This document shows positions 4,038-27,519 of a stretch of DNA of 40,618 bases, in pieces. A model generated the notes under the pieces. The model was given only the letters and a program-made list of their open reading frames with translations. It had not been told where the DNA came from and searched no databases. Source of the DNA: a virus (taxonomy: Duplodnaviria; Heunggongvirae; Uroviricota; Caudoviricetes). Numbering within the stretch: the first letter of the stretch is position 1; each line of letters opens with the position of its first letter. Position numbers and translations under genes: made by a program. The stretch lies in IMG/VR virus record IMGVR_UViG_2718218168_000006; one strand, 5' to 3'.

Positions 4038-4047
4038 ATTCACCCCA

Positions 4048-8308: not shown

Positions 8309-8979
8309 TCAGCGACCAATCACCACAACCTGACCACCGTCCCCTTCGTCTGCCGTGCTGATCTCCTGAGAAACCACGCGTGACCCCACGCGCATTTCAC
8401 CGTACAGAACAGGCAAAACATTGCCCTGAGCAACCATGTTATCCAGTGAGGAGAAATAGGTGTTCTGTTTGCCGTTATCCGTTGTCTGTGTACGGGGAGT
8501 TCTGGCTTTCGGTGCCAGCATCTGCGCCACACCACCGAGCACCATACTGGCACCGAGAGAAAACAGGATGCCGGTCATACCACCGGCCCCAATGGCTGCC
8601 CCCATGCTGCAAGGGTGGCTCCGGCAGTAAAGAATGATCCGGCAATGGCGGCAGCTCCCAGGACAATCTGGAATACGCCACCTGACTTGGCCCCGGCGAC
8701 TCTGGGAACAATATGAATCACAGCGCCATCAGGCAGAGTCTCATGTAACTGCGCCGTTAACCCGGACGTGCTGACGTCCCGCCCGGCAATCCGTACCTGA
8801 TACCAGCCGTCGCACAGTTTCTGACGAAACGCCGGGAGCTGTGTGGCCAGTGCCCGGATGGCTTCAGCCCCCGTTTTCACACGAAGGTCGATGCGGCGGC
8901 CAAATCGTTGTAAATCCCCGTAAAGGCAGATGCGCGCCATGCCCGGTGACGCCAGAGGGAGTGTGTGCGTCGCTGCCAT
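8309..8979 (-). pseudogene. I: tail assembly protein I, interrupted by a single-base frameshift (or sequencing error)
   Basis: Two overlapping track ORFs (8575..8979 N-terminal part MAATHTLPLASPGMARICLYGD; 8309..8605 C-terminal part ..VLPVLYGEMRVGSRVVSQE..VVVIGR) together reconstitute lambda I; join lies at a C-run near 8599-8603. Confidence 0.8.
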
Positions 8980-9578
8980 TTGTCGGTATACCTCTCTCGT
9001 TTGCTCAGTTGTTCAGGAATATGGTGCAGCAGCTCGCCGTCACCGCAGTAAATAGCGGCATGATTCGGCACCGATGAACCAAAGCAGCACAGCAGCACAT
9101 CGCCCGGCTGCGCCTCTGTCAGTGCGACACGGTAAAAACCAGTCGCCTCCATATTGTCAAGATAGAGATTCTGACCGTTACGCCACCAGTCATCCCCGCG
9201 ATGAAAATCCGGCATCTCAATCCCAGCCAGATGATAAGCATCCCGGAACAGCGTGTAACAGTCCGTCGCCCCGTGCTCAAAGCGCCGCCCGGTGAGATGC
9301 GGCACACAGCGGAACTTATGAATCACTCCCCGGCAGACCAGCCACCACGGCAAATCACTCTGCACCTGCAGCCGCCGGTCGGCCTCACTCAGCCAGGGCA
9401 GACCACCGGGGTGACTGTGGACCAGCGCCACAATCTCACCCTGCATTTTGGCCTGCAGCCAGTCCTCCGGAGCCATCCGGAAATAATCCTCCGGCTCACC
9501 GGAAATATTCACGCAGGGAAAATATCTTTCCCCTCCGGCGTGCTTACCACGAAGCCGCACGACTCCGCTGGCGCACAT
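8877..9578 (-). CDS. K: tail assembly protein K (MPN/JAMM + NlpC/P60)
   Basis: ORF with HSHP motif and lambda K-like sequence; overlaps I by about 103 nt as in lambda; the lambda-equivalent 199 aa start would be at about 9476. Confidence 0.8.
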   Translation of the reverse strand: MCASGVVRLRGKHAGGERYFPCVNISGEPEDYFRMAPEDWLQAKMQGEIVALVHSHPGGLPWLSEADRRLQVQSDLPWWLVCRGVIHKFRCVPHLTGRRFEHGATDCYTLFRDAYHLAGIEMPDFHRGDDWWRNGQNLYLDNMEATGFYRVALTEAQPGDVLLCCFGSSVPNHAAIYCGDGELLHHIPEQLSKRERYTDKWQRRTHSLWRHRAWRASAFTGIYNDLAAASTFV

Positions 9579-9623
9579 CGCCGGGCGTGCGCCAGAATCG
9601 CTGATTCTGTCTCTGTCATGGGA

Positions 9624-10322
9624 TTACTGCGAAAGTTTGTTAATGGAAAGGAAGCCGCCAAAGTTGCCGACGTTATTGCGAAACTTACAGCCACTCAGGC
9701 ATTTGCTGCATTTATCTTTCGTGATATCGGACGTCGGCTGGTCATATTCATCCGCAACCGCCGGACCGTGATAACCGCACTCATCACCGCGATAGGTCCA
9801 GGTGCAGGTGTTGGCCAGCATGGTACGTCCCGGAAAAACAGCACCATCCGTTTCCGTCGGCGTGGACAGTACAAAAGAGGCACTCACCGCGCTCAGTTCG
9901 CTGCACTGCTCGATGCGCCAGCGGCTGATCACCTCCTGCTCTGGATCGGCTTCGCTGTTTCCGTTGACGAAGTTCACCACATCCAGAAAACGGGCGTAAA
10001 CCTTACGCCTGACCACCGTTCCGCCGACCAGACTCTGCAGGTCTTCCGCCATCCCGGTGACCATGCCGTGCAGATTAGAGACTTTCAGCGTTGGCCTTGC
10101 ACTGGCTCCTTTGCCGTTCATCTCAAATCCACTTCCCTGAATGGGATAGGCCTGATACTGCCGCCCCTGCCAGGTGACTGGTTCACCTTTTTCGTTCTGC
10201 TCATTACAGAAGAAATAACGATCTCCGCCGACCTCTGTCAGATCAATTTCCCAGAGCACGACCAGCGCGGATTGCTCCGTTTTAGTGCACTCATTGAGTG
10301 TTTCCTGCTGTATATCCTGCAT
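9624..10322 (-). CDS. L: tail tip protein L
   Basis: 232 aa ORF MQDIQQETLNECTKTEQSALVVLWEIDL.., same length and sequence pattern as lambda L. Confidence 0.9.
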   Translation of the reverse strand: MQDIQQETLNECTKTEQSALVVLWEIDLTEVGGDRYFFCNEQNEKGEPVTWQGRQYQAYPIQGSGFEMNGKGASARPTLKVSNLHGMVTGMAEDLQSLVGGTVVRRKVYARFLDVVNFVNGNSEADPEQEVISRWRIEQCSELSAVSASFVLSTPTETDGAVFPGRTMLANTCTWTYRGDECGYHGPAVADEYDQPTSDITKDKCSKCLSGCKFRNNVGNFGGFLSINKLSQ

Positions 10323-10663
10323 CAGTGAGTGACCTCTTCAAAGGTACAGTTAAAATCGGTATACATGGCATTATCCGAAATGCTCCACTCCCTGCAGACA
10401 ACCCGGACAGTCCTGTTGTGTTTTGGCGGACGCCACAAAAAAGCACGAACCCCGGCATGACGGGATAAAAAACTGTCCAGCGCGGCACGGGAATATTCAT
10501 CCGTGACACGAAATACCGGTTTAAACGTTTTCAGATCTGCATTCAGACCACCAGCCCGTCGCTGTTCATATCCGTCACCGAACTTTACCGTAATAACAGA
10601 TGGCTTTCGTGTCGTCTCCATCCCCTCGCGGGGGATCCAGTTAAAAACTTCAGACTCAGGCAC
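10322..10663 (-). CDS. M: minor tail protein M
   Basis: ORF containing FGDGYEQRRAGGLNADLKT and FLWRPP motifs; start uncertain (GTG overlapping the H stop, or ATG at METTRKP). Confidence 0.7.
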   Translation of the reverse strand: MPESEVFNWIPREGMETTRKPSVITVKFGDGYEQRRAGGLNADLKTFKPVFRVTDEYSRAALDSFLSRHAGVRAFLWRPPKHNRTVRVVCREWSISDNAMYTDFNCTFEEVTH

Positions 10664-13600
10664 TGCATAATCCTCCGTCCCGACGTGATGACTGCATAAT
10701 TGACACAACCCTGCTGTCGATCAGATCCACCAGTCCCCTGGCTGAGCGCGCATCTATCTCGCCATTGCTCCCTTGATTCTGAATGCTGATGTGATACACG
10801 GGAGAATAAACAAATCCACCGCCACCATTCACATTTCCAATGGCCCTGACCCCAAGAGAGCCGTCCGCTGCCCGTGTCAGTGGCATGATTGCTTCAGGCC
10901 CGGCCTCGCCCATCAGCCCGGCACCTTTCGCAAAAGCAAAATACGTCGGGGTATCCACAATGGTGTTACTGTAAGCACTCAGATTTGCCGATGTATAAAC
11001 ACCACCTTTTGCGTTTGCCACTGCACCGGAAAGCCAGTCGCCGACTGTACCAAGCCATCCTCCGGCACCGGACATGCTTTTGGAAAGTGACTTCAGCCCG
11101 TTAACGATGGCAGCGTTCATCAGAATTTTTGAAACTTCCTGGAGAATTGAACTCCCCCAGTTTCTCCAGTCCACAACATTTCCGGCCAGTGCATCGGAAA
11201 TATTTGATACCAGCCCGTCCATAGTGGAAACGACAGCATCTGCCGCCTGCGAAGCATAATCGGTGGCACTGTCTGCCCAGTTCGTCAGTCCCTCCTGGAG
11301 TCCGGCATTCCAGTTACTGCGTAAAGCATCAGCCTTTGCATAATAATCCTGCTGATCGCTGAGACGCTCTTCCAGATATTTTTCATTCAGAGATTTTTCC
11401 TGTTTCCACAGGGCTTCTTCAATTTCTCCGGCCTGATACTGTCTCAGTAGCTCGTTATTTTTCTGCTCAAACTCCTGCCGGATGCTCCACATTTCCTGAA
11501 GTCGTTCACGCATCCGTGAGCCTTCACCATATCCCAGTAACTGAGCCTCATTTGATGCTCTGACACTGGCATTACTGTCCGCCAGACTGCTCTCATACGC
11601 AGCAAGCTGCTCACGAATCTTTTTCTGGTCGATGAGTGCTGCATTCTGCAAAAGCGTTTTTTTCTGCGCTTCTGACAGGGTTGATAATTCGCCCTGGCTG
11701 ACCTGATATTTCATCTTAGCCAGTTCAGTATTCTGCCCTGCCAGTGCTATTTGTTCTTTTTGCTGTTTAATCAGCCGTTTATAAATATCTTCTGTTTTTT
11801 CCGCTTCGGTCTTTTTATGCGCTTTTGGTTTATTTGCCTGGTTATTTCGCCAGGCATCCAGTGAGTTATTGATATAATTCTGTCTGGCTGTCTGATACGC
11901 CTCTCCCACAAAGCCGAGATCATCCGCAGCATAACCCAGGCGGGCACGCTCACGGGCTTCCCCCTTCAGGCGGGACAGAGCCAGTTCGCGCTCGCTGTTA
12001 TTCAGTGCGGTCTGCTGTTTATCATCCAAGGTTGCCTGTGGTAGCCGTAACGGTACATTCACCAGCCCCTGTCGCTGCTGAAGTAATTCATTACCGAGCC
12101 CGAGAAGGCGATTAAACTCGGTATGCTGCCCATTCATGATCAACAGGGACTGATACGCTTTGTTTTGTTCCGCTGCCTGTTGACGGATCAACGCCACCCG
12201 TCGCTCCTCCAGCCCGGCAAGCACATCCTGAATGGATTGCGCTTTGCCCTGCATTTGAGTGAGGCGAGACTGTTCAACTGCCAGTTGATTTGTTGCTTCT
12301 GCAAGCCCTTCTGTGACAGTTTTTACCGACGTCATGTGGTTAATCATAAAACCGTTATCGGTTGTCCAGCCCGGGTTTGCCAGCACATACTGATAGCCAG
12401 CAATTTTTTCCTGTAAGGATTTAATCTTACTTTTCTGCTCGTCAATTAACCTGTTTTGCTCCTTCAGTGCCTGTCGCGTCTTTTCCTCATTATCTGACGC
12501 TTCAGGAAGCGACATTGCCGACGTTTTCTGGCGAATTTCGTCGATTGTTGCGGCATACTGTCGTGCAGATTCTCTGGCCTGCTCCTGATTCTGATACATC
12601 GTGTACCAGGCCGCAGCCCCCAGCATGACGAGTCCCGGCACACCACCAACCAGCCCCAGCGCGCCACTTAATAAACGACTCCCCACTGACGTAACATTAT
12701 TCAGCGTTGTCTGTGCCGCTGTTCTGGCCGCAATATTACGGGTAAGTGACACCTGGGTAGCTGTCAGCTTCGCTTCTGCTGCGGCCTGCCTTTCGGTACC
12801 GCGAGCAGCAACAACCGCCTGTTGCGCACGATAAACCGCCGCACGCGCCCTGGCGGTTGCTATCTGTGTCCCCCGAAGTTGCACTTCAGCAAGAGCCACT
12901 TCGTTTCTGGCTGCAGTAATTAATCCGGCAGTTGCAGATCCAGCAGACGACGCCATATTGCCAAAATATCGGGCTACCCCGACGGCAACCAGAGCACCAG
13001 CAGCGGTTGCCACGGTGTCAATATTGCCTGCAATACCATTCAGCACACCGGAGAGCGTCTTCGTCACTCCGCTTGCCTCGTTCGCACCACCAACCCAGGC
13101 CATAAAGGCGTTTTCAACTTTGGTTGCAGAGGATGAAACCGTATCAGGCATTGCTGCATATTCATCACGCAACGCCCCAAGCTGACTAATCAGTGCAGGA
13201 ACAACCTTATCGGCGGTCAGTTTTCCGTTATCCGCCATGGCCTTCAGATCCTTACGGGCAACCCCATTCCCGCAGCCAGCGCACGAATAACACGATCGCC
13301 GTTCTCATTCACCGAGTTAAACTCTTCACCGCGCAGCACTCCCTGCGCCAGTGCCTGACTGAACTGCGTGATCACCGAACTGGCTTCTGCTGTACTGGCA
13401 CCGGATAATTTCAGGCCCGTGGAGATCGCCTCGGTGACTTTCAGTACCTCCTCAGAACTGTAACCATACTCCCGCATGGAAGCTGCAGAACGGGCAAAAA
13501 GGCTGGCGTTATCAGAAAACGCCGTCCCCGTTCTCTGGCTGATCGCCATTAATTCACGCTGTGATGACTGAAAATCATCACTGGACTGTGAGGCCTGCTT

Positions 13601-13900
13601 CAGACGGGCATTTACTGAATTCCACTCATCGGCGAGAGAAATAAGATGACCGGTAGCAAAAGCCCCGGCAAATGCCCCCGCCATGTTCAGTGCCGAAGAT
13701 TTAGCTGTATTTATCTGATCCGTCACTTCTGCCAGTGCACGCCGCATTTCACGGGATGCAGCAGCGGACTGTCGGCCTCCGTTCTGCATGGTACGGTAGT
13801 AATCCTGCCCCATACGCGAAGCCCGGGAGATCTCTGACTGGAATGACCGGGAATTTGCCGAGATTTTAATAATCAGTTCACGTAATGTCGCCACACTCAT
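10656..13900 (-). pseudogene. H: tail tape measure protein H, split by a frameshift into 218 aa and 860 aa ORFs
   Basis: ORF 13244..13900 (..GEEFNSVNENGDRVIRALAAGMG) and ORF 10656..13238 (MADNGKLTADKVVPALISQ..) are contiguous tape-measure segments separated by 5 nt; the downstream frame is open upstream and reads through a C-run near 13252. Confidence 0.8.
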
Positions 13901-13908
13901 TCTCCGGA

Positions 13909-13932
13909 CGAAAAAAAACCGCCGAAGCGGTT
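13909..13932 (-). terminator. terminator-like hairpin plus U-run between GT and H
   Basis: aaccgc-cgaa-gcggtt hairpin with an 8-nt A-run on the plus strand (U-run on the minus transcript), directly upstream of the H RBS. Confidence 0.35.
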
Positions 13933-13940
13933 ATGTTGAC

Positions 13941-14241
13941 TCACTGAGACACTATTAAAAGCGCGTTTTCCAGTCCAGCAAATGGATCTGATACGCCTTC
14001 TGTCTGCTCCTTCTCCCACTGAAGAAGCGCATCATTCAGTGGCACTTTGACCCCCTGCGCACCGTAAACAGCTGAAACAATCTGGGCAGCCCGGATATCA
14101 GCCCGTTCGTCCCCCAGCGGGCTGAACCTGTCAAATTCTGCCCACATCATGATTTCTGATGCGGACATTTCCCGGCGTAACTCTGACAATGTGCGCCCCA
14201 TCCTGAGCGCCAGCATCATCAGAAAACGCATCCCCGGAAGC
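13941..14241 (-). CDS. T: T segment of tail assembly chaperone GT, expressed by programmed -1 frameshift from G
   Basis: 96 aa ORF in the -1 frame relative to G, beginning just after the slippery heptamer at the G 3-prime end. Confidence 0.7.
14232..14240 (-). other. programmed -1 ribosomal frameshift site (slippery A AAA AAG) at G/T junction
   Basis: Minus-strand sequence GTT AAA AAA AAG TAG; slipping -1 joins ..GEVKKK to VALPGMRFLMML.. (the T frame); analogous to lambda G-T. Confidence 0.6.
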
Positions 14242-14242
14242 G

Positions 14243-14613
14243 CTACTTTTTTTTAACCTCGCCGGCATCACTGATTAGTTCCAGAGACTGCCGAAGAAGC
14301 CGCGCATGCACCGGGCCATACACGGCAATCACCTGTTCACGATCATCCTCTGAAAATACAGGTTGCAGTCCGGTATCACACAGAACATCGATGAACAGTT
14401 CAACATCCGCTTCCAGATTTCGGCGGGCGCGCTCCGCAACGGATAACGGTGTCTCATCATCTTTTGCTTTAACGATCTCCTGCCAGCGCAACCAGGCTTC
14501 TGCAGAAGGTTCCCGTAATACAACCGTTGCCCCTCCCATTCAGGCACATCAACAGTTTTATGGCGAAACCCCGACATCGTTGCCAGTGCCAGATTACGGA
14601 TATTTTTAGTCAT
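14243..14613 (-). pseudogene. G: tail assembly chaperone G, with an additional non-programmed frameshift near its N-terminus
   Basis: Track ORFs 14329..14628 (..MTKNIRNLALATMSGFRHKTVDVPEWEG) and 14243..14539 (GATVVLREPSAEAWLRW..GEVKKK) overlap in different frames; join at a C-run near 14530; ATG at 14613 has a GAGGA RBS. Confidence 0.75.
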
Positions 14614-14627
14614 CACATCTATCCTCA

Positions 14628-15332
14628 TTAACTGACGGTAACAGTGCAGGAAGTAGAGGTCACTTTGTTAACAGGGCTTGCTGAATCAGAAATCTCGCAG
14701 GTATATGCACCCGCATCACCGGATACTGCCGATGCCTTACTGAACGTTGCCGCCGTCTGTCCGGAAACAGGAGAACCACCTTTCTTCCAGACATAAGAAT
14801 AAGGCGGCACACCACCCGCAGCCTCAACCGCCATTTCAAGTTTCGATCCGGAAGCAACCCGCAGCGTGCTTTTTAAATCGACCTTCACTTTCAGCGGCTC
14901 TGTCGTCAGCACAGGTTTACCTTTCAGGCGCAGAGAAAACGTTGCAGCCACAACACCATTGGTTCCTGCAGACCAGGTATGCTGACGCACCTCTGCCATA
15001 AAGGTAAATCCGTTTCCTGACGGAAAAATAACTTTAAAGCCATACGTGGTGTCATTGTCATAGGCACTGCGCAACGCGTTCTGGGCAGCATTGAGGTAAA
15101 AGTTGCCTGACATGGAAATCTCTGACGCGGCACCAAGACCGTTAATATTTTCCTGCTCAACAGAACACAGCGTGGTGACATCAATATCCTGCTTTTGTCC
15201 TGCGGTAAACTGCACCTCTTTGATTGTACAGCTCAGACCAAGATAGCTGGCAGAATCCAGGGTTTCTGCTGTTACCGGTGCAGACGAAATCATAATTTTC
15301 GTCAGTTGCGAACGCTCAAAATTAGAGGACAT
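14628..15332 (-). CDS. V: major tail protein V with C-terminal Ig-like domain
   Basis: ORF MSSNFERSQLTKIMISSAPVTAETLDSASYLG.., ATG at 15332 preceded by AGGAGA; C-terminal region resembles a Big_2-type Ig domain. Confidence 0.85.
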   Translation of the reverse strand: MSSNFERSQLTKIMISSAPVTAETLDSASYLGLSCTIKEVQFTAGQKQDIDVTTLCSVEQENINGLGAASEISMSGNFYLNAAQNALRSAYDNDTTYGFKVIFPSGNGFTFMAEVRQHTWSAGTNGVVAATFSLRLKGKPVLTTEPLKVKVDLKSTLRVASGSKLEMAVEAAGGVPPYSYVWKKGGSPVSGQTAATFSKASAVSGDAGAYTCEISDSASPVNKVTSTSCTVTVS

Positions 15333-15344
15333 ACTCGTCTCCTG

Positions 15345-15370
15345 AAAATAAAAAACCCGCCAGCGGCGGG
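15345..15370 (-). terminator. terminator-like hairpin upstream of V
   Basis: acccgcc-agc-ggcgggt hairpin followed on the minus strand by a T-run, between tail terminator gene and V. Confidence 0.4.
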
Positions 15371-15391
15371 TGGGTAAAATCATTAACGACC

Positions 15392-15736
15392 TCAGGCTAT
15401 TACCTGAAATTCAAGCGTGGCTCTGCTCAGACGGGAATCAGGATCATAACCCTGAGTTTTAGAAATAACGGAGGGTGCAAGTTGCCTTACCGCATCAAGC
15501 GCCTGCTCACGGATATCATCTGCGTCATCAGGTACTGTTGCCCAGACATCGATCTGCACGGTAATTCTGGATTCAGCCTGACCATCAAGCACATCAGACG
15601 CAGTGTCAGACACCACAGAAAATACCAGCCATGGCGGAGATACCGCAGGCTTTCCCTCCGTCAGCGGGACCACATAAGGATAAACCTGTCCTCCGGCCAG
15701 TTGAGACAGCAGGGAATACAGTGTGGTCTCTCTCAT
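15392..15736 (-). CDS. tail completion / tail terminator-like protein (HK97-type neck module)
   Basis: 114 aa ORF in conserved position immediately upstream of the major tail gene; overlaps the preceding gene by 4 nt. Confidence 0.6.
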   Translation of the reverse strand: MRETTLYSLLSQLAGGQVYPYVVPLTEGKPAVSPPWLVFSVVSDTASDVLDGQAESRITVQIDVWATVPDDADDIREQALDAVRQLAPSVISKTQGYDPDSRLSRATLEFQVIA

Positions 15737-16182
15737 TTACTTAAGACCTCATCAATAGCCTGATTCATTCGCTGTATGGCAATCTGTGCTGCCAGTTCCT
15801 CTGTCGTATCGAAAGCCGGGCGAATGAACGGATGCGCGGGCATGTTTATCGTTCCCAGCTCCACAAAGCGCCAGTAAAACGCATTTCGGGGATCACTGGC
15901 TTTCATGCTGTTATCACTGTTTCCGGTTCGCAGGTTCCGTCCACGAATGTGGACACCCGAGATAATTTCCCCCCGACGCTTTGAACGCTGAGTGAGAACA
16001 ACCACATTTTTCTTCAGTTTCCCGGTTCGCTCCGGCGCACGTTCAACAACTGCATCCCGCATAACTTCAGCACCGGCACGGGTGGCATCGCGCAGTACCT
16101 TATTGTTTTCTGCCCTGCTGAGCGTCTCCAGATCCCGTGCAATATCCGCCAGACCTGAAAAATCAAGACTGAAATCCATCAC
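15733..16182 (-). CDS. HK97 gp10-family head-tail joining protein
   Basis: 149 aa ORF in the neck module; translationally coupled to neighbours. Confidence 0.6.
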   Translation of the reverse strand: MMDFSLDFSGLADIARDLETLSRAENNKVLRDATRAGAEVMRDAVVERAPERTGKLKKNVVVLTQRSKRRGEIISGVHIRGRNLRTGNSDNSMKASDPRNAFYWRFVELGTINMPAHPFIRPAFDTTEELAAQIAIQRMNQAIDEVLSK

Positions 16183-16517: not shown

Positions 16518-16525
16518 GAATCCTC

Positions 16526-16831: not shown

Positions 16832-16842
16832 TTGGGCAACCT

Positions 16843-17031: not shown

Positions 17032-17081
17032 GATTCTTTCACCTGTCAGAACAGGGGCGCACTTCTGCGCCCCCTGAATGA

Positions 17082-18287: not shown

Positions 18288-18327
18288 CGTATTTCTCCTG
18301 ATTAGAAGTTCAGATTTTTCAGTGCAT

Positions 18328-18951
18328 TCAGTGCAGAGCCCACATCCTCAGCGTCGCGCAGGGACAGTGCGCCATAGCCCCGGCCATGAATGCTTTGGCC
18401 TGGGTACGGGAGAGTCCGACATCACGCAGGACTCTTTCGATTTTTTTCTGTTCGGGGATTTCCCCGCGGGCCAGTGCGTTCTTGACGTCGCTGATCCGCG
18501 CCTCGTCGTTAGACGGGAACGTCACCAGGCTGACTTCCCAGAGGTCGATTTCTTTCAGCAGAAAGGCTTCTTTGCTCCGGTCGTATTCCCAGTCTTTCAG
18601 GACGTACCCAATAGAAAGGCCGGTTAACGAACCGGCCTTCATGTGTGCATGTGCGCGTTTTGCGAGGGGATCATCATCAATAAGCAACCGTCCCCTGACG
18701 TAAAGCCCGACATCGTCTTCCTTCATTTCGGTGTAAACACCGATGGGTTCATCCATGCGGTGCTGCCAGAGCAGCGCAGGTAACGCTTTTCTGTCACTCC
18801 ACGCCCGCAGGGAAGCAGCAAATGCCCCGGACATCACCACATCATCGTGGCTGTCCTTTACACCAAAGACGGAGCCATACCCTTCAAACTCACCGGAGTC
18901 ACTGACAGATTTCAGACTCAGCGGTACATCAAGACGTTGTTTCGTCTGCAT
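18328..18951 (-). CDS. prohead protease (HK97 family); C-terminus possibly frameshifted
   Basis: ORF with protease-like core; ATG at about 18951 with AAGGA RBS overlapping the portal 3-prime end; an alternative frame from about 18355 gives a more protein-like tail (GYGALSLRDAEDVGSALNALKNLNF) ending at 18303. Confidence 0.75.
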   Translation of the reverse strand: MQTKQRLDVPLSLKSVSDSGEFEGYGSVFGVKDSHDDVVMSGAFAASLRAWSDRKALPALLWQHRMDEPIGVYTEMKEDDVGLYVRGRLLIDDDPLAKRAHAHMKAGSLTGLSIGYVLKDWEYDRSKEAFLLKEIDLWEVSLVTFPSNDEARISDVKNALARGEIPEQKKIERVLRDVGLSRTQAKAFMAGAMAHCPCATLRMWALH

Positions 18952-20170: not shown

Positions 20171-20352
20171 TATTTACCTCCGCCGACAGACGGCTGTGTA
20201 CGGTCGAGATATCGCGCCACCAGCCACGACCAGAACAGGCACAGCGCCCCGGCAACAACAAAACCCGCCGGGGGATAAATCAGCCAGGCACCATACGCCA
20301 GCAAAAGCGCACCCAGCACGCCCACCAGTGGCGCGAGAATTATCAGAAACAT
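20170..20352 (-). CDS. small hydrophobic membrane protein
   Basis: 60 aa ORF with two predicted TM segments; ATG with GAGG RBS; stop overlaps portal start. Confidence 0.5.
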
Positions 20353-20363
20353 AATGACCTCGG

Positions 20364-22121
20364 TTAAAGCGAGCGGATGCCCACGCTGACCAGATGTTCA
20401 GACAGATCCGGCTCCGGTTCACCACCATTGACCAGCATCCGGCTCATTGCTGTAAACATCGCAACAGGGCCGTCGATTTTGGCTTCCAGCGTGGATTTAT
20501 TCGGGAAGATATTGTCGTTTTTGTCCGGTTTTACCGTAACGTTAGACATCATCCAGTTCATGACCGGATGATTGCTGTGATGGAAACGTCCGGCATAGAC
20601 CAGTGATTCCGTTTCCTTCATGGCCTCTGACAGATTGCGAACCGTCTGCGGAACCTCCACCAGCGGTATCCCTTCTTCAGCCAGTGCTAGGCTGAACTGC
20701 ATCGCGCTCCACGGGTCAAATCCCAGTTCCCTGAGGTTTTCACCACCAATCCATTCCAGTAAGTCACTTTTTATCTGAGCATGATCGATAACATCACCAT
20801 CCGTCAGAATCAGCTTATCCATCTCCGCCCACTTCCGGTAAAGTTCTGCCTGCTGCCGCGAGCATCGTTCCAGCCGTCCTTCCGGGAGCCAGAATTTAAA
20901 ATCGGCATGAACATGCCCGTTATCCGTTCGCCAGAGTTTTGCCGCCGCACAGATATCAATCTTATGAGCAAGGTCAACGCCGACCCACATGGGATACGTT
21001 TTCAGCTCATGTCGCGGGGCAATGTATTCGCACTTCTCCCACTTAATCATGTCCATCCAGGCAGACTCTGCTGTTACCCACACATTCATGTGTTTGGTAA
21101 AAAAATTCACCCGCGCAGAGACCTGTTCTTTCGCTTTTTTCGCCAGACGACGCAGATCATCCCAGCGTTTACAGATGCCCAGGCCAGGATTCGCTTTCTG
21201 CCAGACCGTTTCATCAAACGGATCATCTCCCTCATCGAGGGTGTAAATAATCGCAAAGTAGGAGTCGTCTTTTACAGCGCCCTCCACGTCGCTGTTATAG
21301 CCACGCAATACCTTGATGGCATAATCACGCTGCTCGTAACAAATCCCTTCCTTGTTAAACCCTGCCGTGGTGATACCAAATAAAAGGGACTGCAGACGGG
21401 CACCGGTTGCCGTTTCCAGAACGTCCCACACGTCACGGGTTTTATGTGCATGCAGCTCATCAATAATGGCGCAGTGGATGTTCAGACCATCCAGGTTGTT
21501 TGCATCCGAAGAAAGCGGTTCAAATTTTGATGCGCTCTGCTCCTGGTAAATCGCCAGCTTGTTGAAATCAAACAACCGCCCGAGTGTCGACCGGGCTTTT
21601 CTGACCATATTTTTGGCGTCTTCAAACACGATTCTGGCCTGGTCACGCGTGGTTGCGGCTGAATACACCTCAGCACCGCCTTCACCATCTGCCCCCGTCA
21701 TATACAGACCGATACCCGATGACAGGGTTGATTTTGCGTTTTTACGGGCAACTTCGTTGTATGCTGTCCGGAACCGGCGCACCATCACCGGGCGCCCGCT
21801 GCCATCGCTGCGCATGACAACTTCCCCGGTCTCTTCATTGACCAGCGGAATGACAAAACCAAAAATATTAATGAGGATAAATACATGCCAGTCCATCAAC
21901 TCAATAGGCTGGCCTGCCAGCGCCCCTTTTACATGAGGCACAAATTTGTAGAAATTCAGGATGTGCTGCGCACGTGGTTCACTGAAATAAATCCCCCGCT
22001 CTTCGCCGTACTTTAGATCATCAAGAAAACGCTGGCAGGCCAGGCGGACAAATTCGCCAGCAACAATTTCTCCTGCAACAACACGTTCGGCGTAGCGGAT
22101 CCCGTCAGCCACTTTTGCCAT
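20364..22121 (-). CDS. terminase large subunit
   Basis: 585 aa ORF in the HNH/TerS/TerL/portal order; start overlaps the small terminase stop. Confidence 0.9.
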
Positions 22122-22602
22122 CAGTCTCTCGCTTTTAAAAGCTCCGCCAGCGGATCAACATCATCCGGTCCGGCAATATTTACTTTAGCCCGGCTTGCCG
22201 GTGACATACCAAACTCTGCAAGCATTGCCCGGATCCGCTTCCAGGCATCCGCTTTCATTGCCGCCGCGGGGTGCGCCTTAATCAGTACATCACCGCTCTG
22301 CGTTTCCGTGCGGTAGGTATACCCTCAACATCGAGTGTTTCGCAGTGATGCCGATATTCGGTATAGGCTTCCACCAGCAACTCGAGTGCACGCGCATCAA
22401 GCTGAGAAATGATCCCTTCCGCATTCAGCTCTTCCGCCATTCGCCTGAACCAGTACTTCCCCTGTGCCCCTAAATGCTGCGGAATTTTAGGGAGACCTTT
22501 TTCATCCTTTTTAGCGGTTTTTTTTGAGTCTTTAACGGGGCGCTTTGAGGGGTTGCCTCGTATCAAATGCAGGCGTGGCGGGGTTTTCGGAGGTCCTGAC
22601 AT
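22122..22602 (-). pseudogene. terminase small subunit (P27 family), interrupted by a frameshift
   Basis: Track ORF 22282..22602 (MSGPPKTPPRLHLIRGNPSKRP..) ends prematurely; another frame continues ..TETQSGDVLIKAHPAAAMKADAWKRIRAMLAEFGMSP.. to a stop overlapping the terL ATG; join near a short C-run at about 22323. Confidence 0.75.
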
Positions 22603-22749
22603 AATCGGTCTTACCTATCAATCGTTTGTTCACATTTCCAAAAAAAGTTTTCGAACCTGCGGCGATGTGAGGAAGGGTCAGGCGGCGGTACTGAGCAGCT
22701 AGGGTTGCAGAGATTTGACCCGCCCCTCCCCTACAGATGGGAACTGTTA

Positions 22750-23100
22750 TCAATTGATGCGTTCGCGCGCTGTTTTTGCTTTATGACAGGGCCAGCACAG
22801 ACTCTGCAGGTTACTGTCTGCATCCGTGCCACCATGAGCTTTCGGAATGATGTGGTCCACAGTTCTGGCTTCAACGGCTCTCCCATTGCGCAGGCAGTTC
22901 TGACACAGATGATTATCACGCTTCAGTATGCGCGCACGTATGGCATCCCATTTCGAGCCATAGCCACGCTGGTGGCGGCTCAGTCCGCGTTGATGCTGTA
23001 CCCATCCTTCGCCACGATGTTTATCGCAGTAACCAGAACTGTCTGTGGTTGTACCTGCACATCCACGCTTACGGCAGGCGCGTGGGATTCGTGATGGCAT
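22750..23100 (-). CDS. HNH endonuclease (terminase-associated)
   Basis: 116 aa ORF with Cys/His-rich HNH motifs (CQNCLRNG..DHIIPKAHGG..CWPCH) directly upstream of the terminase genes. Confidence 0.8.
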   Translation of the reverse strand: MPSRIPRACRKRGCAGTTTDSSGYCDKHRGEGWVQHQRGLSRHQRGYGSKWDAIRARILKRDNHLCQNCLRNGRAVEARTVDHIIPKAHGGTDADSNLQSLCWPCHKAKTARERIN

Positions 23101-23142
23101 AAATACCTCATACCCTGCGAAATGTTTACCACGATAAAAAGG

Positions 23143-23610
23143 CTACTTAATGCACTGAGTGCGGATATATTCCTGCGCCCCTTCCAGTTGCATCTGCATC
23201 GTCATCAATCGGTCTCTGAGGGTGAAATAATCCCGTTCAGCGGTGTCTGCCAGTCGGGGGATGGTTGCATTATCCACGCTGGTGGGTCCGGTGGCTTCAC
23301 GCACGGCTGCGGAGCAACTGGCATTGACCCGCAGGCGCTTACGGCCAGCGGCAACATCAGCGCGCAGAGTTTCATTTTCAGCTTGCGCATTGGCTAATTC
23401 TCTCGAGTACTTTGCATCGAGCGCAGCAACATCACGCTGACGCTGCTGCATGTCAGCGATGGTGGCGATCGCCAGCTTCAGCTCACTGACTTTTTTATCA
23501 CGCTGTTCTTTGTAGGCGATGGCGTTATCACGGTAATGATTGACCGCCCACGACAGGCAGACGATGATGCAGATAACCAGAGCATAAATAATCGCGGCGA
23601 CTCTGCTCAC
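23143..23610 (-). CDS. Rz: i-spanin Rz
   Basis: Lambda Rz-like sequence ([34 protein letters not shown]..); GTG start overlapping the endolysin stop. Confidence 0.85.
23205..23390 (-). CDS. Rz1: o-spanin Rz1 (lipoprotein), embedded in the +1 frame of Rz
   Basis: 61 aa [23 protein letters not shown].. with lipobox and Pro-rich region ([30 protein letters not shown]) as in lambda Rz1. Confidence 0.8.
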
Positions 23611-24140
23611 TGATCTATCCCCCAACAGGCTAATGCACTTTCCTGGTCACGACGAATAACCTGTCCATAGCAGTTATTTGAACGTATGCGGCAATCGCGC
23701 CCACCATCTTTTATCCACCAGCGAATCGCCTCGCATGCACCTTTACGATCACCAGCATTCAGCCGCTTATAAAACGTCGACGGAAAACACTTACCGGGGC
23801 CAATGTTATAGGGACAAAATGACGCGATACCGGCTTTTTGTGGCTCGGTCAGTGGTACTTTAATATTGCGCTCCACCCATGCCAGCGCCTTATCACGCTC
23901 AATGGCGTTGACCTGGTCGCATTTTTCCTTCGACAGTTTCATACCGGGAAAAACGGGTTTTCCATCCACCATCGTGGCACCCCGACAGATGGTCCAGATG
24001 CCGGACCCATCGCGGTATGCCGTTGTGTGGTTACCTTCTTTTTCATCCAGAAACTGGTCGAGAATATCAGGCGCGGGCGCACCGACGGCAATCAGTGCCA
24101 GAACGGCAGCCGACAGGCCGTATCTGATTTTTGCGTTCAT
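23607..24140 (-). CDS. R: SAR endolysin (phage lysozyme R with N-terminal signal-anchor-release domain)
   Basis: 177 aa ORF with hydrophobic N-terminus [21 protein letters not shown] followed by lysozyme-like domain; partnered with an S21-type pinholin. Confidence 0.8.
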
Positions 24141-24203
24141 GGATATTTATCAGGATTTATCGGTTTCTGCCCACGGACAGGTTTATCTGTTCCGGTCAGT
24201 GAC

Positions 24204-24554
24204 TTAAGGTTGTGATTCCGGAGGAGTCTTCAGAGAACCAGTAATTCTTCCTGGTAGCTTTCCTTTGTAGGTTATCCAAACATTCTGCGCATCTAAAATT
24301 ACGGGGCGCTTTTCCGGCGACTGCTCATCCCCTTCACATAACCCGGCAGCAACATCCAGGAAGACCTGTCTGATGCTCCTTCTGGCTGCTGCCTCATAAA
24401 CCTCCAGCGCGGCACCTTCAACACGGTCCAGCGAGATGTCCAGGTCAAAAATTTCGCCGTCAAAGCGTTTTTTGTCCCGTAACGCTAAAGTTACCGTAAC
24501 TTTATTCTCAAAATTGCGGATCCCTTTCACAATCAGTTCATAGTTTTGAGTCAT
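24204..24554 (-). CDS. hypothetical protein between holin and endolysin (YdfR-like, probably DUF1327 family)
   Basis: 116 aa ORF inside the lysis cassette; same position as ydfR in the Qin prophage (family assignment from memory). Confidence 0.55.
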   Translation of the reverse strand: MTQNYELIVKGIRNFENKVTVTLALRDKKRFDGEIFDLDISLDRVEGAALEVYEAAARRSIRQVFLDVAAGLCEGDEQSPEKRPVILDAQNVWITYKGKLPGRITGSLKTPPESQP

Positions 24555-24558
24555 TGAA

Positions 24559-24774
24559 TTACTCTCCCCGTGCAGCCTTACGCTTGTCTTCTCTGATTTT
24601 GAAGTACAGATTTGTCAGATAAGTCAGGAAGCCCAGAACCAGACTCCCCAGAACACCAATCGCAGCCCACTGTGACGGACTGACCTGATCAAGCCACTGT
24701 AAAAACCAGTAGCCAGCACTGCCTGCGGAGGTGCCGTAGGCAATGCCCGTTGAAATTTTGTCCATGGATTTCAT
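24559..24774 (-). CDS. S: pinholin S (phage 21 S21-like), dual-start motif
   Basis: 71 aa [66 protein letters not shown].., essentially the S21 pinholin sequence with Met1/Met4 starts. Confidence 0.9.
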
Positions 24775-24934
24775 AGCCTCACCTCCGCAAATAACGGATG
24801 GCGTAGTTTTACACTGAGAAATGAAAGGGATTTGAAAAGAAAAAACCGCAAAAGCGGGCGAAACGATATATACAGAAAGGAAAGCACTCTATCCAACAAA
24901 CCACCCACAGTTGATCGGAATAAAAGCAGAGTGC

Positions 24935-25007
24935 TTATGAATGATCGCCTGCCCGAAGGTTAGTATTTCTGCACAGCAATTTTGCAAAAAAAGGCGATCA
25001 TTCATAA
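24935..25007. repeat. 16-bp perfect inverted repeat (TTATGAATGATCGCCT / AGGCGATCATTCATAA) separated by about 41 bp
   Basis: Read directly from the sequence between tRNA-Gly and the S gene. Confidence 0.6.
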
Positions 25008-25066
25008 CTTAAACGTCTTTCAGTCACTCCGGGATTTCCCATCATCGCAGACTGAAAGACTCTGAC

Positions 25067-25141
<75 letters not shown>

Positions 25142-25144
25142 ATA

Positions 25145-25220
<76 letters not shown>

Positions 25221-25222
25221 AC

Positions 25223-25299
25223 TGGACCGCCACCGGGGACTCGAACCTCGCACACTCAACTTAAAGGGTTGACGCTCTTTCCTGATGAGCTAGTGGCGG
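25223..25299 (-). tRNA. atypical tRNA (anticodon loop CCTTTAA, apparent anticodon UUU; C at position 33)
   Basis: 7-bp acceptor stem CCGCCAC/GTGGCGG, T-loop TTCGAGT, encoded CCA; C33 and one T-stem mismatch make identity uncertain. Confidence 0.4.
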
Positions 25300-25300
25300 T

Positions 25301-25376
25301 TGGTGGCCCTTGCTGGATTTGAACCAGCGACCTGGCGATTATGAGTCGCTCGCTCTCACCACTGAGCTAAAGGGCC
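25301..25376 (-). tRNA. tRNA-Ile2/Met (anticodon CAU), ileX/ileZ-like
   Basis: GGCCCTTTAGCTCAGTGGTGAGAGC..CTCATAA..GGTTCAAATCC..AAGGGCC-A-CCA; resembles E. coli ileX. Confidence 0.7.
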
Positions 25377-25493
25377 GGGCGCAGGATAATAACGTTACGA
25401 AATCAATGTTGCAAGCATTCAAAAATCACCTGGTTAAAAATCACCCTTATCTCCTCCACCAGCGCATTCACCATGTCTATCCGAGATAAGTGG

Positions 25494-25521
25494 CACAAAA
25501 AAACCCGCTTGATGCGGGTTT
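25494..25521 (-). terminator. intrinsic terminator upstream of the tRNA cluster (tR-prime-like)
   Basis: aaacccgc-ttgat-gcgggttt hairpin followed on the minus strand by about 7 T. Confidence 0.55.
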
Positions 25522-25641
25522 AAGTTGTGTGGCGAAGCGACCACTCTTAACAGATTAAGATAGTTTTTGCGTACGCGTTAGTGATTTTTTCATAATTATC
25601 TGTATCCTGTGGCTATTTCTCTTGCGCAAAGGATGCTTTTG

Positions 25642-26520
25642 ATGACGCAGCAACTCGAAAACATGCCAATAACAGAAATCGAAATTGCCTACGGTGGAGA
25701 GGCATACGCAGATAATCAGATCGACGCGAAAACATTAGGCGAAGCCTTAACCTCTCTTAGTGCCCTGATTGAACACGCCGAAAAAATAATTAATGGCGAA
25801 ACAGCAGAGCCGAAAGTCAACATCAAGGCAACAAAAGAAGGTTCATTTACTTTGCTTGTTGCTGTGATGGGGAGCATAAAAACTATTAACGCCCTTGGCC
25901 TCGTTGCAGGTGGTGGAGTTGCCGCAGGTGGCGTACTCGGGATAATCGAATGGCTCAAAGGGCGTAAAATCAGCTCCATTGTCGTCGATGAACAAAAAGA
26001 TACAGCAGAAATCGAAGTGGATGGTGAGAAGGTTAAATGCAGTAACGACATTCAAAAATTAATAACCAGTCCAATCATCCGAAAAGAACTGGATAAATTA
26101 ATCTATAAACCCCTGCAGACTGAAAAACCATCCACGTTCTCAGTTTCACAGCAGAAGCATAAGGTAGTCAGGGTGACGCAAGCTGAAGCAGTAAGTTTTA
26201 AAACTGCAAAATCCACCTTTGTCGAGAAAACGCACGTAACGACACGCCAAGCTAATGTACATTTTGCTAATGTTCGATTCAAGCAAGGCAAAAGCTGGGA
26301 TATCATCCTGCCAAATGGCGAAGAAGTTAGCGCATCTATGAAAGATGAGGCTTTTCTTGAACGGGTTGAACACAACCAAGCAGCATTCTGTAAGGGTGAT
26401 CTTTTTGTTGTAGAACTGACAGAAACAACAAAAGAAACAAATGGCGCGCTGTCTAAACCACGCTATAGTATTACTAAGGTTATACGCCACAGAGCGGCGG
26501 CAGATAGGAAACTACTTTAA
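25642..26520 (+). CDS. hypothetical protein with central Gly-rich hydrophobic segment (first gene of 3-gene cargo operon)
   Basis: Track ORF 25609..26520; probable ATG at about 25642 (MTQQLENMP..) after AAGGA; contains FTLLVAVMGSIKTINALGLVAGGGVAAGGVLGIIEWL; AT-rich relative to flanking phage genes. Confidence 0.6.
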   Translation: MTQQLENMPITEIEIAYGGEAYADNQIDAKTLGEALTSLSALIEHAEKIINGETAEPKVNIKATKEGSFTLLVAVMGSIKTINALGLVAGGGVAAGGVLGIIEWLKGRKISSIVVDEQKDTAEIEVDGEKVKCSNDIQKLITSPIIRKELDKLIYKPLQTEKPSTFSVSQQKHKVVRVTQAEAVSFKTAKSTFVEKTHVTTRQANVHFANVRFKQGKSWDIILPNGEEVSASMKDEAFLERVEHNQAAFCKGDLFVVELTETTKETNGALSKPRYSITKVIRHRAAADRKLL

Positions 26521-26523
26521 ATC

Positions 26524-26769
26524 ATGTCAATCCTAAGCATTATGCTTTACATCACTGTATTCATGGCTGTCGCAGCGACGGTCAGATATGCTGTGCTTAG
26601 GTTCTTGGTTTGGGTAAAGCCGAATGCGTATATTGAACTAACCTACACCGATCCTGAAGGCAGAACCGCTAAAAGGAAAGTCAGCGTTAGAAACGAAAAT
26701 GACGCAGAAGAGTTGGCGCTACTGCTACGCGAACTCAAAACTCGCAACGAAGCAAGTGCAGGAAGGTGA
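26524..26769 (+). CDS. small membrane protein (1 predicted TM), second gene of cargo operon
   Basis: 81 aa ORF MSILSIMLYITVFMAVAATVRYAVLRFLVW..; starts 3 nt after the upstream stop. Confidence 0.55.
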   Translation: MSILSIMLYITVFMAVAATVRYAVLRFLVWVKPNAYIELTYTDPEGRTAKRKVSVRNENDAEELALLLRELKTRNEASAGR

Positions 26770-27156
26770 ATGGCGAACACTAAATCCTACCTGGCAATGC
26801 AGGCATGGTTTACCACCCTTATCACTGCGGGATTGAATTTCCTTTTTGACTGGCTTCCTCAATTAGCCTTCTTCAAATCATTGGCGCCTGGAGCTGCTGT
26901 CGGCTTATCTCATGTGGTAATTCTTCTTATCGCTTACATAGGTTTGCCTACGCTTAATGATGTAAGAATGAAAAGGGAAATAAAAACGGCCAGAAAATTC
27001 ATCACGAACTGCCTGGCCAACCCTAACCTAACACCAGACCAAATTGCGCACTACAACCAATGTCTTATCGATCTAGACAATAAGCTATTAAAAAACATAA
27101 ATATTCGTATTGATGCTTTATCTGACGCCGAATCGAAAGCTCAAGCAAACGAGTAG
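26770..27156 (+). CDS. small membrane protein (2 predicted TM) with helical C-terminal tail, third gene of cargo operon
   Basis: 128 aa ORF; ATG immediately follows the upstream TGA; convergent with and ending about 13 nt from the Q stop. Confidence 0.55.
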   Translation: MANTKSYLAMQAWFTTLITAGLNFLFDWLPQLAFFKSLAPGAAVGLSHVVILLIAYIGLPTLNDVRMKREIKTARKFITNCLANPNLTPDQIAHYNQCLIDLDNKLLKNINIRIDALSDAESKAQANE

Positions 27157-27169
27157 TAACAGTCATAAC

Positions 27170-27519
27170 TTATGATAGAATCAAGCATATACATCCATCA
27201 ATAAAGCCTAATGCAGTTTGCAGCTCCTTTCTTATAGTTCCATCTGAGCACCTGCGTTTCTTCGCGATTGAGCGTAGAGAAACACCAATAACAAAGTGAG
27301 CTATGAGCAGCTCATATTCCTCTGGTTTATACTTTCGCAACCGAGCCACACAACCGTCTATCATGATGCCTTCATCATCATCACACTGGAGACGTGACTT
27401 TTTGCCATGTGGCAAAAGCCCCTTGAAGCCCGCTGCTATCGGTTGCCAATCGACACCGCTATTTTCTGCTGCAGCCCATGCCCCCAGCGATCTAAAACCT
27501 CATACATATCACGCCCCAT
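27170..27519 (-). pseudogene. Q: late-gene antiterminator Q (QuuD-like), interrupted by a frameshift
   Basis: N-terminal frame MGRDMYEVLDRWG.. (ATG overlapping rusA stop) stops after 27 codons; C-terminal track ORF 27170..27415 is open upstream as ..AWAAAENSGVDWQPIAAGFKGLLP..; fusion at a C-run near 27481-27485 restores the QuuD-like RWGAWAA motif. Confidence 0.75.

What the first reader, a model, noticed from the sequence alone, without database searches (positions are those of the whole stretch)
8309..27519. Five or more phage genes split by single-base frameshifts, each apparently at a C-run
I, H, G, small terminase and Q are each broken into two frames in the ORF track, with the prohead protease C-terminus a possible sixth. 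In every case the intact family sequence is restored by adding one C within a short plus-strand C-run (G-run on the coding strand). Long neighbouring genes (J 1159 aa, stf, terL, portal, capsid) are intact. Recurrent same-direction homopolymer errors are a classic signature of sequencing or base-calling artefact; alternatives are real decay of a cryptic prophage or a mismatch-repair-deficient host. My homopolymer-length counts are by eye and may be off.
Basis: partly seen in the sequence, partly recalled or inferred. Interest (0 to 1): 0.6.

Follow-up and report, generated by a model that had tools for sequence, protein, structure and literature searches.

The report
Homopolymer miscalls break seven prophage genes
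Seven late genes of an otherwise pristine E. coli prophage are each broken by one missing base at a short run of C, a pattern that is far better explained by a sequencing or assembly error than by real gene decay, so it is ordinary and mainly a data-quality warning.

Summary
Seven genes are broken, not five or six: I, K, H, G, prohead protease, small terminase and Q. Each is split by one missing base relative to near-identical relatives. Six losses shorten a plus-strand C run: C6 to C5 twice, C5 to C4 three times, C4 to C3 once. The seventh loses a T from C4-TT-C3.

Adding one base at each site restores seven full-length proteins. Each is 100% identical to a protein of an intact relative.

There are no other isolated indels anywhere in the 40.6 kb. 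The affected 19 kb holds only 2 lineage-private substitutions against 7 private deletions.

Five of the short alleles are absent from all 403 to 3,909 complete RefSeq E. coli genomes that carry the same 81-mer. The same alleles recur only in other assemblies that carry further frameshifts or rearrangements, and on different haplotypes.

G/C-homopolymer deletions at about 0.17 per kb match published PacBio RS II consensus errors.

Verdict: most likely a base-calling or assembly artefact (about 0.8). Real mutational inactivation is not excluded without reads. Interest is low.

The parts
8309..8880 (-). Tail assembly gene I (190 aa when repaired). Frame broken at the C run 8599-8603 (C5 here, C6 in relatives).
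   Evidence: PF06805. An 81-mer with C5 has no perfect match in 2,520 RefSeq genomes that carry it.
8877..9619 (-). Tail tip gene K (JAB + NlpC/P60, 247 aa when repaired). Broken at 9530-9533 (C4 here, C5 in the closest relatives).
   Evidence: No perfect match in 3,909 genomes. The same short allele occurs in IMG/VR UViG 2896595138_000002 on a 95%-identical background.
10656..13894 (-). Tape measure gene H (1079 aa when repaired). Broken at 13262-13265 (C4 here; C5 in 10 relatives, CACCC in 8).
   Evidence: No perfect match in 873 genomes.
14243..14613 (-). Tail assembly chaperone G (123 aa when repaired). Broken at codon 28 by loss of one T in CCCC-TT-CCC (14530-14537). This is separate from the natural G-T slippery site at the 3' end of G.
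   Evidence: PF06222. No perfect match in 403 genomes.
18302..18951 (-). HK97-family prohead protease (216 aa when repaired). C5 to C4 at 18378-18381 replaces the last 25 residues; the product as written is 207 aa, ending at 18328.
   Evidence: (2 kb otherwise identical to 8 relatives). The 207-aa form also exists in a related head module joined to a myovirus tail, including Logan read assemblies.
22121..22602 (-). Small terminase, P27 family (160 aa when repaired). Broken at 22322-22324 (C3 here, C4 in relatives).
   Evidence: PF05119. No full-length perfect match in 521 genomes. The same truncated product occurs only in LR134081.1, which has other homopolymer deletions.
27170..27519 (-). Antiterminator Q, PF06530 type (116 aa when repaired). 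Broken 38 nt after its start at 27481-27485 (C5 here, C6 in relatives).
   Evidence: One of 48 RefSeq genomes (strain E70) has C5, annotated 'frameshifted', on a more distant haplotype.

Best explanation
The seven frameshifts are most likely consensus errors in the deposited assembly. The length of short G/C homopolymers was under-called by one base, and one AA/TT pair lying between two such runs lost a base.

The real prophage is probably an intact lambdoid phage with an HK97-type head and a lambda-type tail, inserted between potB and potC. All seven genes would then be in frame.

Shown here:
- The position, direction and base of each lesion.
- That a single base restores perfect identity to known proteins.
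- That there is no other decay.
- That the alleles are rare in good assemblies.

Inferred:
- That the cause is the sequencing chemistry or consensus step. A PacBio RS II-type signature fits best.
- That errors may have survived because the region is repeated in the genome. A second prophage in the same genome appears to encode identical Rz and Lom proteins.
For: 1. Every isolated indel in the whole 40.6 kb, measured against the best relative of each segment, is a 1-bp deletion. Six of seven shorten a C run and one sits between two C runs.
2. One added base per site gives I 190/190, K 247/247, H 1079/1079, G 123/123, protease 216/216, terS 160/160 and Q 116/116 residues identical to proteins of intact relatives.
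3. In 8301-27550 there are 2 private substitutions against 7 private deletions. P = 4.7e-5 even at the mismatch-repair-deficient ratio of 30,061 substitutions to 5,324 indels. Bacterial substitution:indel ratios range from 4 to 23.
4. Between about 3 and 15 kb the window differs from L026 by 3 mismatches but 4 deletions. The 2 kb around the protease site is identical to 8 relatives apart from the missing C.
5. No perfect 81-mer match among 2,520, 3,909, 873, 403 and 521 complete RefSeq genomes for I, K, H, G and terS.
6. The same short alleles recur on different backgrounds in assemblies that carry further frameshifts or rearrangements. These are LR134081.1, JBIHGD010000001.1, an IMG/VR UViG and strain E70. 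That points to site-specific miscalling or hot spots rather than shared descent.
7. The hit rate rises with run length: G/C4 1 of 138, G/C5 3 of 28, G/C6 2 of 7. A/T runs of 4 or more are untouched, 0 of 467.
8. Published PacBio RS II-only assemblies show systematic deletions of G and C in homopolymers, including in E. coli (PMC8574707). One PacBio consensus had 561 homopolymer deletions in about 3.2 Mb, or 0.17 per kb (PMC4888979). That is the density seen here: 7 in 40.6 kb.
9. Protein accessions place the source in a 4,994,918-bp GenBank chromosome. There are 15 protein ids between J and Rz where 20 genes lie. This suggests the record itself marks five of these genes as pseudogenes (inference).
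Against: No reads and no access to the source genome, so the error is not demonstrated directly.

Seven errors in 19 kb is far denser than a well-polished PacBio E. coli assembly, which had 37 indels per genome. A poor consensus or a locally unpolishable repeat must therefore be assumed.

Natural slippage also prefers G/C runs and deletions. This is reported for mismatch-repair-deficient P. aeruginosa and for B. cenocepacia.

At least two of the short alleles exist elsewhere as possibly genuine variants. The 207-aa protease occurs in Logan read assemblies. Q with C5 occurs in RefSeq strain E70.

A second related prophage in the same genome seems to keep a full run of protein ids. If so, errors are not uniform across the genome.
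Confidence: 0.8

Rival explanations
1. Real, recent inactivation of the prophage. Seven independent -1 slippage mutations at G:C runs accumulated in a silent prophage. The cause could be a mutator host (mismatch-repair defect) or Pol IV (DinB)-type -1 frameshift mutagenesis.
For: Natural indels concentrate in homopolymers, and their rate rises with run length. In some bacteria they favour G/C runs and deletions. DinB strongly promotes 1-bp deletions (PMC6590174). The same -1 alleles are seen in other genomes, such as Q in strain E70, a visibly degraded prophage at the same attachment site.
Against: There are only 2 private substitutions beside 7 deletions, P = 4.7e-5 at the most indel-rich natural ratio known for E. 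coli. There is no nonsense mutation, IS insertion or larger deletion, and all seven repaired products are 100% identical to intact proteins. None of hundreds to thousands of complete genomes shares the I, K, H, G or terS alleles. No other genome found shares more than one of the seven.
Confidence: 0.1
2. A mixture. One or two lesions are genuine alleles (the protease C-terminal variant, perhaps Q) and the rest are consensus errors.
For: The exact 207-aa protease is encoded in 11 contigs of a related head module, including several Logan assemblies of public read sets, with C4 at the same place. Q with C5 exists in RefSeq strain E70.
Against: In the window the 2 kb around the protease site is identical to the C5 haplotype and 2-3% different from the C4 lineage. 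The Q region is 99.7% identical to C6 relatives but 98.4% to E70. Neither allele can therefore have been inherited or imported with its flanks, and both would have to be new events here.
Confidence: 0.08
3. Programmed recoding. The breaks are natural ribosomal or transcriptional slippage sites, like the G-T frameshift of lambdoid tails.
For: Tailed phages do use one programmed -1 frameshift between G and T. That site is present here: an A8-G at the end of G, with T in the -1 frame.
Against: Near-identical relatives encode all seven genes as single uninterrupted reading frames. The breaks are not conserved. They lie at arbitrary positions, from codon 13 of Q to codon 192 of the protease.
Confidence: 0.01

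Closest known systems
Systematic G/C-homopolymer deletion errors in PacBio RS II-only consensus assemblies (ARAMIS study, PMC8574707; E. faecium ATCC 700221 announcement, PMC4888979)
   Same: Single-base deletions in short homopolymers, mostly G or C in mid- or high-GC genomes including E. coli. They truncate genes despite high coverage. The density of 0.17 per kb in one documented case matches 7 per 40.6 kb here.
   Different: The sequencing platform of the source is not known. A well-polished E. coli PacBio assembly had only 37 such errors genome-wide, so this region would be unusually dense.
Nanopore homopolymer-length errors and residual errors in repeats after short-read polishing (Kastor, PMC12007338; Polypolish, PMC8812927)
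   Same: False deletions dominate, most often after runs of 4-5 identical bases. Errors survive polishing in repeated regions. The source genome appears to hold a second related prophage.
   Different: In the nanopore data set examined, A/T runs were hit about twice as often as G/C runs. Here 0 of 467 A/T runs of 4 or more are affected.
Genuinely decaying cryptic lambdoid prophages of E. coli, e.g. the potB/potC prophage of strain E70 (L036)
   Same: Same attachment site and the same Q, tRNA and lysis module. Q is annotated as frameshifted at the same C run.
   Different: E70 shows large deletions, gene fusions and an IS1. The window has no lesion other than the seven single-base deletions.
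Programmed -1 frameshift between the tail chaperone genes G and T
   Same: It is a frame change in the same gene cluster. The real site (A8-G at the 3' end of G) is present in the window.
   Different: It is conserved in all relatives and lies elsewhere.

Membership tests
Homopolymer-length consensus error (long-read or flow-type sequencing artefact) | Lesions are single-base indels located in homopolymers | tested here: met
   Seven of 7 are 1-bp deletions. Six shorten C runs of 4-6 and one removes a T from TT between C4 and C3. P = 2.5e-10 for chance placement.
Homopolymer-length consensus error (long-read or flow-type sequencing artefact) | One direction and one base class predominate (G/C deletions for PacBio RS II in mid-GC genomes) | tested here: met
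   Seven of 7 are deletions (sign test 0.016). G/C runs of 5 or more are hit 5 of 36, A/T runs of 5 or more 0 of 169, Fisher 1.3e-4. This matches.
Homopolymer-length consensus error (long-read or flow-type sequencing artefact) | Indels greatly outnumber substitutions relative to the nearest true sequence | tested here: met
   Seven private deletions against 2 private substitutions in 19.25 kb.
Homopolymer-length consensus error (long-read or flow-type sequencing artefact) | Independent accurate assemblies of near-identical DNA carry the longer run | tested here: met
   L026-L033 (draft and Logan assemblies, up to 99.6% identical) and 403-3,909 RefSeq genomes carry the longer alleles. These are not the same strain.
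Homopolymer-length consensus error (long-read or flow-type sequencing artefact) | Raw reads of the same isolate disagree with the consensus, and core genes elsewhere in the genome are hit too | not testable with these tools
   The source chromosome (4,994,918 bp, ANJ protein ids) could not be retrieved. The window holds no host genes.
Decaying cryptic prophage (real pseudogenes) | Mixed lesion types: missense and nonsense changes, IS insertions, deletions, alongside frameshifts | tested here: not met
   Repaired products are 100% identical to intact proteins. There are no other indels in 40.6 kb.
Decaying cryptic prophage (real pseudogenes) | Lesions shared by descent with related strains | tested here: not met
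   No relative shares more than one allele. The carriers that do share one lie on different haplotypes.
Mismatch-repair-deficient mutator spectrum | Homopolymer indels accompanied by several-fold more base substitutions (30,061 to 5,324 in E. coli) | tested here: not met
   Two substitutions against 7 indels, P = 4.7e-5.
Programmed ribosomal frameshift | The interrupted frame and slippery site are conserved in relatives | tested here: not met
   Relatives have single open frames at all seven sites. Only the G-T site is conserved.

The most novel reading that the evidence does not exclude
The seven deletions are real. On this reading, a burst of -1 frameshifts restricted to G:C runs knocked out seven late genes and Q almost without accompanying substitutions. 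The cause would be something like Pol IV (DinB)-type synthesis across the prophage during SOS or abortive induction. That would record an unusual, nearly pure frameshift mutational process acting on a prophage.
Probability: 0.06. Interest if true: 0.6.

Novelty: not a real feature. Interest (0 to 1): 0.1.

Why it matters
If taken at face value, this prophage would be scored as defective, with seven pseudogenes. In reality it is probably intact and inducible. The case mainly shows how homopolymer miscalls inflate pseudogene counts in prophage surveys. It also shows that the artefact can be recognised from sequence alone: the indel:substitution ratio, the single direction and base of the lesions, and perfect repair by one base per site. 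If the deletions were real, the near-absence of substitutions would point to an unusual frameshift-only mutational process.

Tried and rejected
- **Finding the source genome.** An exact 39-mer across the K site gave no hit in the GTDB representatives or the JGI metagenomes. In IMG/VR it hit only a different, 95%-identical prophage. Exact-protein look-ups of the H, K and G fragments and of the unique 813-aa exonuclease found no contig. A literature search for the chromosome length found nothing relevant. NZ_LR134081.1 is not in the RefSeq set.
- **Clustering in the late region as a clue.** I rejected this. 24 of the 36 G/C runs of 5 or more lie in 8.3-27.5 kb, so five hits all falling there has P of about 0.11.
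- **C-versus-G strand asymmetry.** Not significant. About four fifths of the G/C runs of 4 or more in the region are C on the plus strand.
- **Dcm or Dam motif-linked nanopore errors.** None of the sites contains CCWGG or GATC at the lesion.
- **Other length differences.** Differences at 951, 9624, 13911, 17054/17070, 22640, 25503 and 35984 against some relatives turned out to be ordinary polymorphisms. Closer relatives share them.
- **Lee et al. 2012.** The paper is not held. Later data from the same laboratory were used instead.
Full report
**What the window is.** The 40,618 bases are exactly one lambdoid prophage. It runs from the stop codon of the tail-fibre assembly gene (1-582, minus strand) to the end of the integrase gene (39500-40618). 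In relatives this element sits between potB and potC. The late genes are all on the minus strand. They comprise Q, a four-tRNA cluster, the lysis genes and an HNH gene. Next come a P27-type small terminase, the large terminase, portal, an HK97-type protease and the capsid. Last are the head-tail genes and lambda-type tail genes V, G, T, H, M, L, K, I, J, lom, stf and tfa. The best complete RefSeq E. coli match is 98.5% identical, and 154 genomes cover at least 80% of the late region.

**Checking the observation.** I translated the genes of an intact relative (PEC148, L001) and searched them against the window. Seven genes change frame: I, K, H, G, prohead protease, terS and Q. All the others are full length. 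Capsid, portal, terL, HNH, L, M, T and the head-tail genes are 100% identical.

Proteins identical to the window's J led to closer relatives. The best of them is L026, 99.63% identical over window 1-18244. It differs by 64 mismatches and exactly four gaps, each a single base missing from the window, in I, K, H and G. In 18-28 kb the only isolated gaps against the best relatives are single bases missing in protease, terS and Q. The early region, 27552-40618, is 99.07% identical to strain 181.1 (L034) and shows no isolated indel at all.

The exact contexts are:
- I: C6 to C5 (8599-8603).
- K: C5 to C4 (9530-9533).
- H: C5 to C4 (13262-13265).
- G: CCCCTTCCC to CCCCTCCC (14530-14537).
- Protease: C5 to C4 (18378-18381).
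- terS: C4 to C3 (22322-22324).
- Q: C6 to C5 (27481-27485).

K is a seventh broken gene. The protease break is real. In G the base present in the nearest relatives is a T between two C runs, not a C. The break in G at codon 28 is distinct from the natural G-T programmed -1 site, an A8-G at the end of G with T in the -1 frame, which is intact.

**Is it more than chance?** G/C runs of 4 or more cover 1.8% of the sequence. Six of seven random indels landing there has P = 2.5e-10.
- G/C4: 1 of 138.
- G/C5: 3 of 28.
- G/C6: 2 of 7.
- A/T runs of 4 or more: 0 of 467 (Fisher 3.8e-4; for runs of 5 or more, 5 of 36 against 0 of 169, P = 1.3e-4).

All seven lesions are deletions (sign test 0.016). The confinement to 8.6-27.5 kb is not itself informative, because 24 of the 36 long G/C runs lie there. 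The long genes that are intact simply contain few such runs.

**Artefact or real decay?** Four lines of evidence bear on this.

First, inserting one base at each site gives full-length I (190 aa), K (247), H (1079), G (123), protease (216), terS (160) and Q (116). Each is identical at every residue to a protein of an intact relative, and each matches the expected Pfam family over its full length. Nothing else has decayed.

Second, I used 22 relatives that were fetched without regard to the frameshift alleles. Against them the 19.25 kb that carries the lesions has only two substitutions private to the window (22700 and 23637), against seven private deletions. Between about 3 and 15 kb the window differs from L026 by three mismatches but four deletions. 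The 2 kb around the protease site is identical to eight relatives except for the missing C. In mutation-accumulation data for mismatch-repair-deficient E. coli, the most indel-prone natural case, there are 30,061 substitutions to 5,324 small indels (PMC8510543). Across bacteria the ratio ranges from 4 to 23 (PMC6330053). Seven or more indels among nine events has P = 4.7e-5 at the E. coli ratio.

Third, 81-mers centred on the sites have no perfect match among the complete RefSeq E. coli genomes that carry the same sequence. The counts are 0 of 2,520 genomes for I, 0 of 3,909 for K, 0 of 873 for H, 0 of 403 for G and 0 of 521 for terS. The best hit is always 98.8%, which is the single gap. For Q, 1 of 48 genomes matches: strain E70. 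There Q is annotated 'frameshifted' inside a grossly deleted prophage. But the window's Q region is 99.7% identical to C6 relatives and only 98.4% identical to E70, so the allele was not inherited from that lineage.

Fourth, the same short alleles turn up singly on unrelated backgrounds, in assemblies that carry further frameshifts or rearrangements:
- The exact truncated terS product occurs only in LR134081.1. That assembly has further single-base deletions in T runs and beside C runs, splitting the tail tube and tape measure genes.
- The exact I fragment occurs only in JBIHGD010000001.1. There the capsid, tape measure, L and J genes are all split.
- The K allele occurs in an IMG/VR provirus with another G-run deletion in J.

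Recurrence at the same runs on different haplotypes points to site-specific miscalling or hot spots, not descent.

**One nuance.** The 207-aa protease produced by the C4 allele is also encoded in 11 contigs of a related head module joined to a myovirus-type tail, including several Logan assemblies of public read sets. That C-terminal variant therefore seems to exist in nature. Those lineages are 2-3% divergent from the window, whereas the window's flanks are identical to the C5 haplotype. The window's C4 is therefore still a new event or an error.

**What the signature resembles.** PacBio RS II-only assemblies carry systematic single-base errors in homopolymers. In mid- and high-GC organisms, including E. 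coli, these are mostly deletions of G and C. They truncate genes even at more than 300x coverage (PMC8574707). One PacBio consensus contained 561 homopolymer deletions in about 3.2 Mb, or 0.17 per kb (PMC4888979). The window has 7 in 40.6 kb, also 0.17 per kb. Nanopore assemblies likewise show false deletions after runs of 4-5 bases, but in the data set examined A/T runs were hit more often than G/C runs (PMC12007338). That fits the window less well.

Residual homopolymer errors typically survive short-read polishing in repeats (PMC8812927). Protein accessions show that the window's tfa, lom, J, Rz and exonuclease are ANJ35660, 35663, 35664, 35680 and 35700, on a 4,994,918-bp GenBank chromosome. 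Identical Rz and Lom proteins also carry ids ANJ34829 and ANJ34851. By inference the same genome holds a second related prophage, so the late region may be a repeat. Only 15 protein ids lie between J and Rz where 20 genes lie. This suggests that five of the broken genes are marked as pseudogenes in the record itself. Both points are inferences from accession arithmetic. The source sequence and its platform could not be retrieved.

**Rivals.** Real inactivation by slippage remains possible. Natural indels also favour homopolymers, and in some bacteria they favour G/C runs and deletions. DinB strongly promotes 1-bp deletions (PMC6590174). Against this stand the near-absence of substitutions, the absence of any other lesion, and the rarity of the alleles. 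A mixed origin, with protease or Q real and the rest errors, is disfavoured by the haplotype comparisons. Programmed recoding is excluded because relatives have uninterrupted frames.

**Verdict.** About 0.1 goes to genuine recent frameshift inactivation, and the remainder to a mixture. The decisive test is accurate reads from the same isolate at seven named positions. As a biological finding it is of low interest. As a quality flag it matters, because a probably intact, inducible prophage would otherwise be classed as defective.

Noticed in passing
window 14243-14262 (minus strand), with T at 13941-14219: The natural G-T programmed -1 frameshift signal is present: G ends ...GGT TAA AAA AAA GTA G (an A8-G slippery run) and T lies in the -1 frame. 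This 8-base A/T run has the same length as in relatives, although shorter C runs nearby are shortened.
   Followed up: partly
window 18302-18951; loci L015-L024: Two natural C-terminal forms of the HK97-type prohead protease seem to circulate, 216 aa and 207 aa. They differ by one C in a C5/C4 run that changes the last 25 residues. The 207-aa form is found with a myovirus-type tail module in 11 contigs, including Logan read assemblies. Whether the altered tail still works is unknown.
   Followed up: partly
window 25437-27156: Three things lie between Q (PF06530 type, 116 aa) and the tRNA and lysis genes. One is a 36-codon remnant of a different antiterminator gene (25437-25544). The other two are plus-strand genes: a LAPAL-motif protein at 25609-26520 and a 128-aa hypothetical at 26770-27156. 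This looks like a moron insertion and module replacement downstream of Q. PEC148, TUM1880 and E70 share it.
   Followed up: no
window 25067-25376: A cluster of four tRNA genes on the minus strand: Gly-TCC, Thr-TGT, Lys-TTT and a CAT-anticodon tRNA. ARAGORN calls the last one Met; the RefSeq annotation of relatives calls it Ile.
   Followed up: no
window ends 1 and 40618; L001, L034, L036: The window begins at the stop codon of tfa and ends at the last base of the integrase gene, so it looks like an excised prophage prediction. In relatives the element lies between potB and potC, splitting the potABCD operon.
   Followed up: partly
window 17050-17080: The hairpin after the capsid gene (GGGGCGCA...TGCGCCCCC) differs from some relatives by paired length changes: G4/C5 here and G5/C4 in L002 and L017-L019. 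This is a natural homopolymer polymorphism, not private to the window.
   Followed up: partly
window 32980-32992: The replisome-organizer gene has an in-frame copy-number difference in a short tandem repeat. The window has 12 bases (ATCTGTATCTTT) fewer than L001 and 6 bases fewer than E70.
   Followed up: no
loci L027, L031, L033 (K gene): In three close relatives, two of them Logan read assemblies, K is called as 199 aa instead of 247 aa, although there is no gap relative to the window apart from the C run. This suggests a substitution affecting the start or an early codon. Not examined.
   Followed up: no
accessions (ANJ34829/ANJ34851 against ANJ35680/ANJ35663): The source chromosome appears to hold a second prophage that encodes identical Rz and Lom proteins, with 22 protein ids from Rz to lom, as expected for an intact late region. 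This could mean that errors are local to one copy or that the region is a polishing-resistant repeat.
   Followed up: partly
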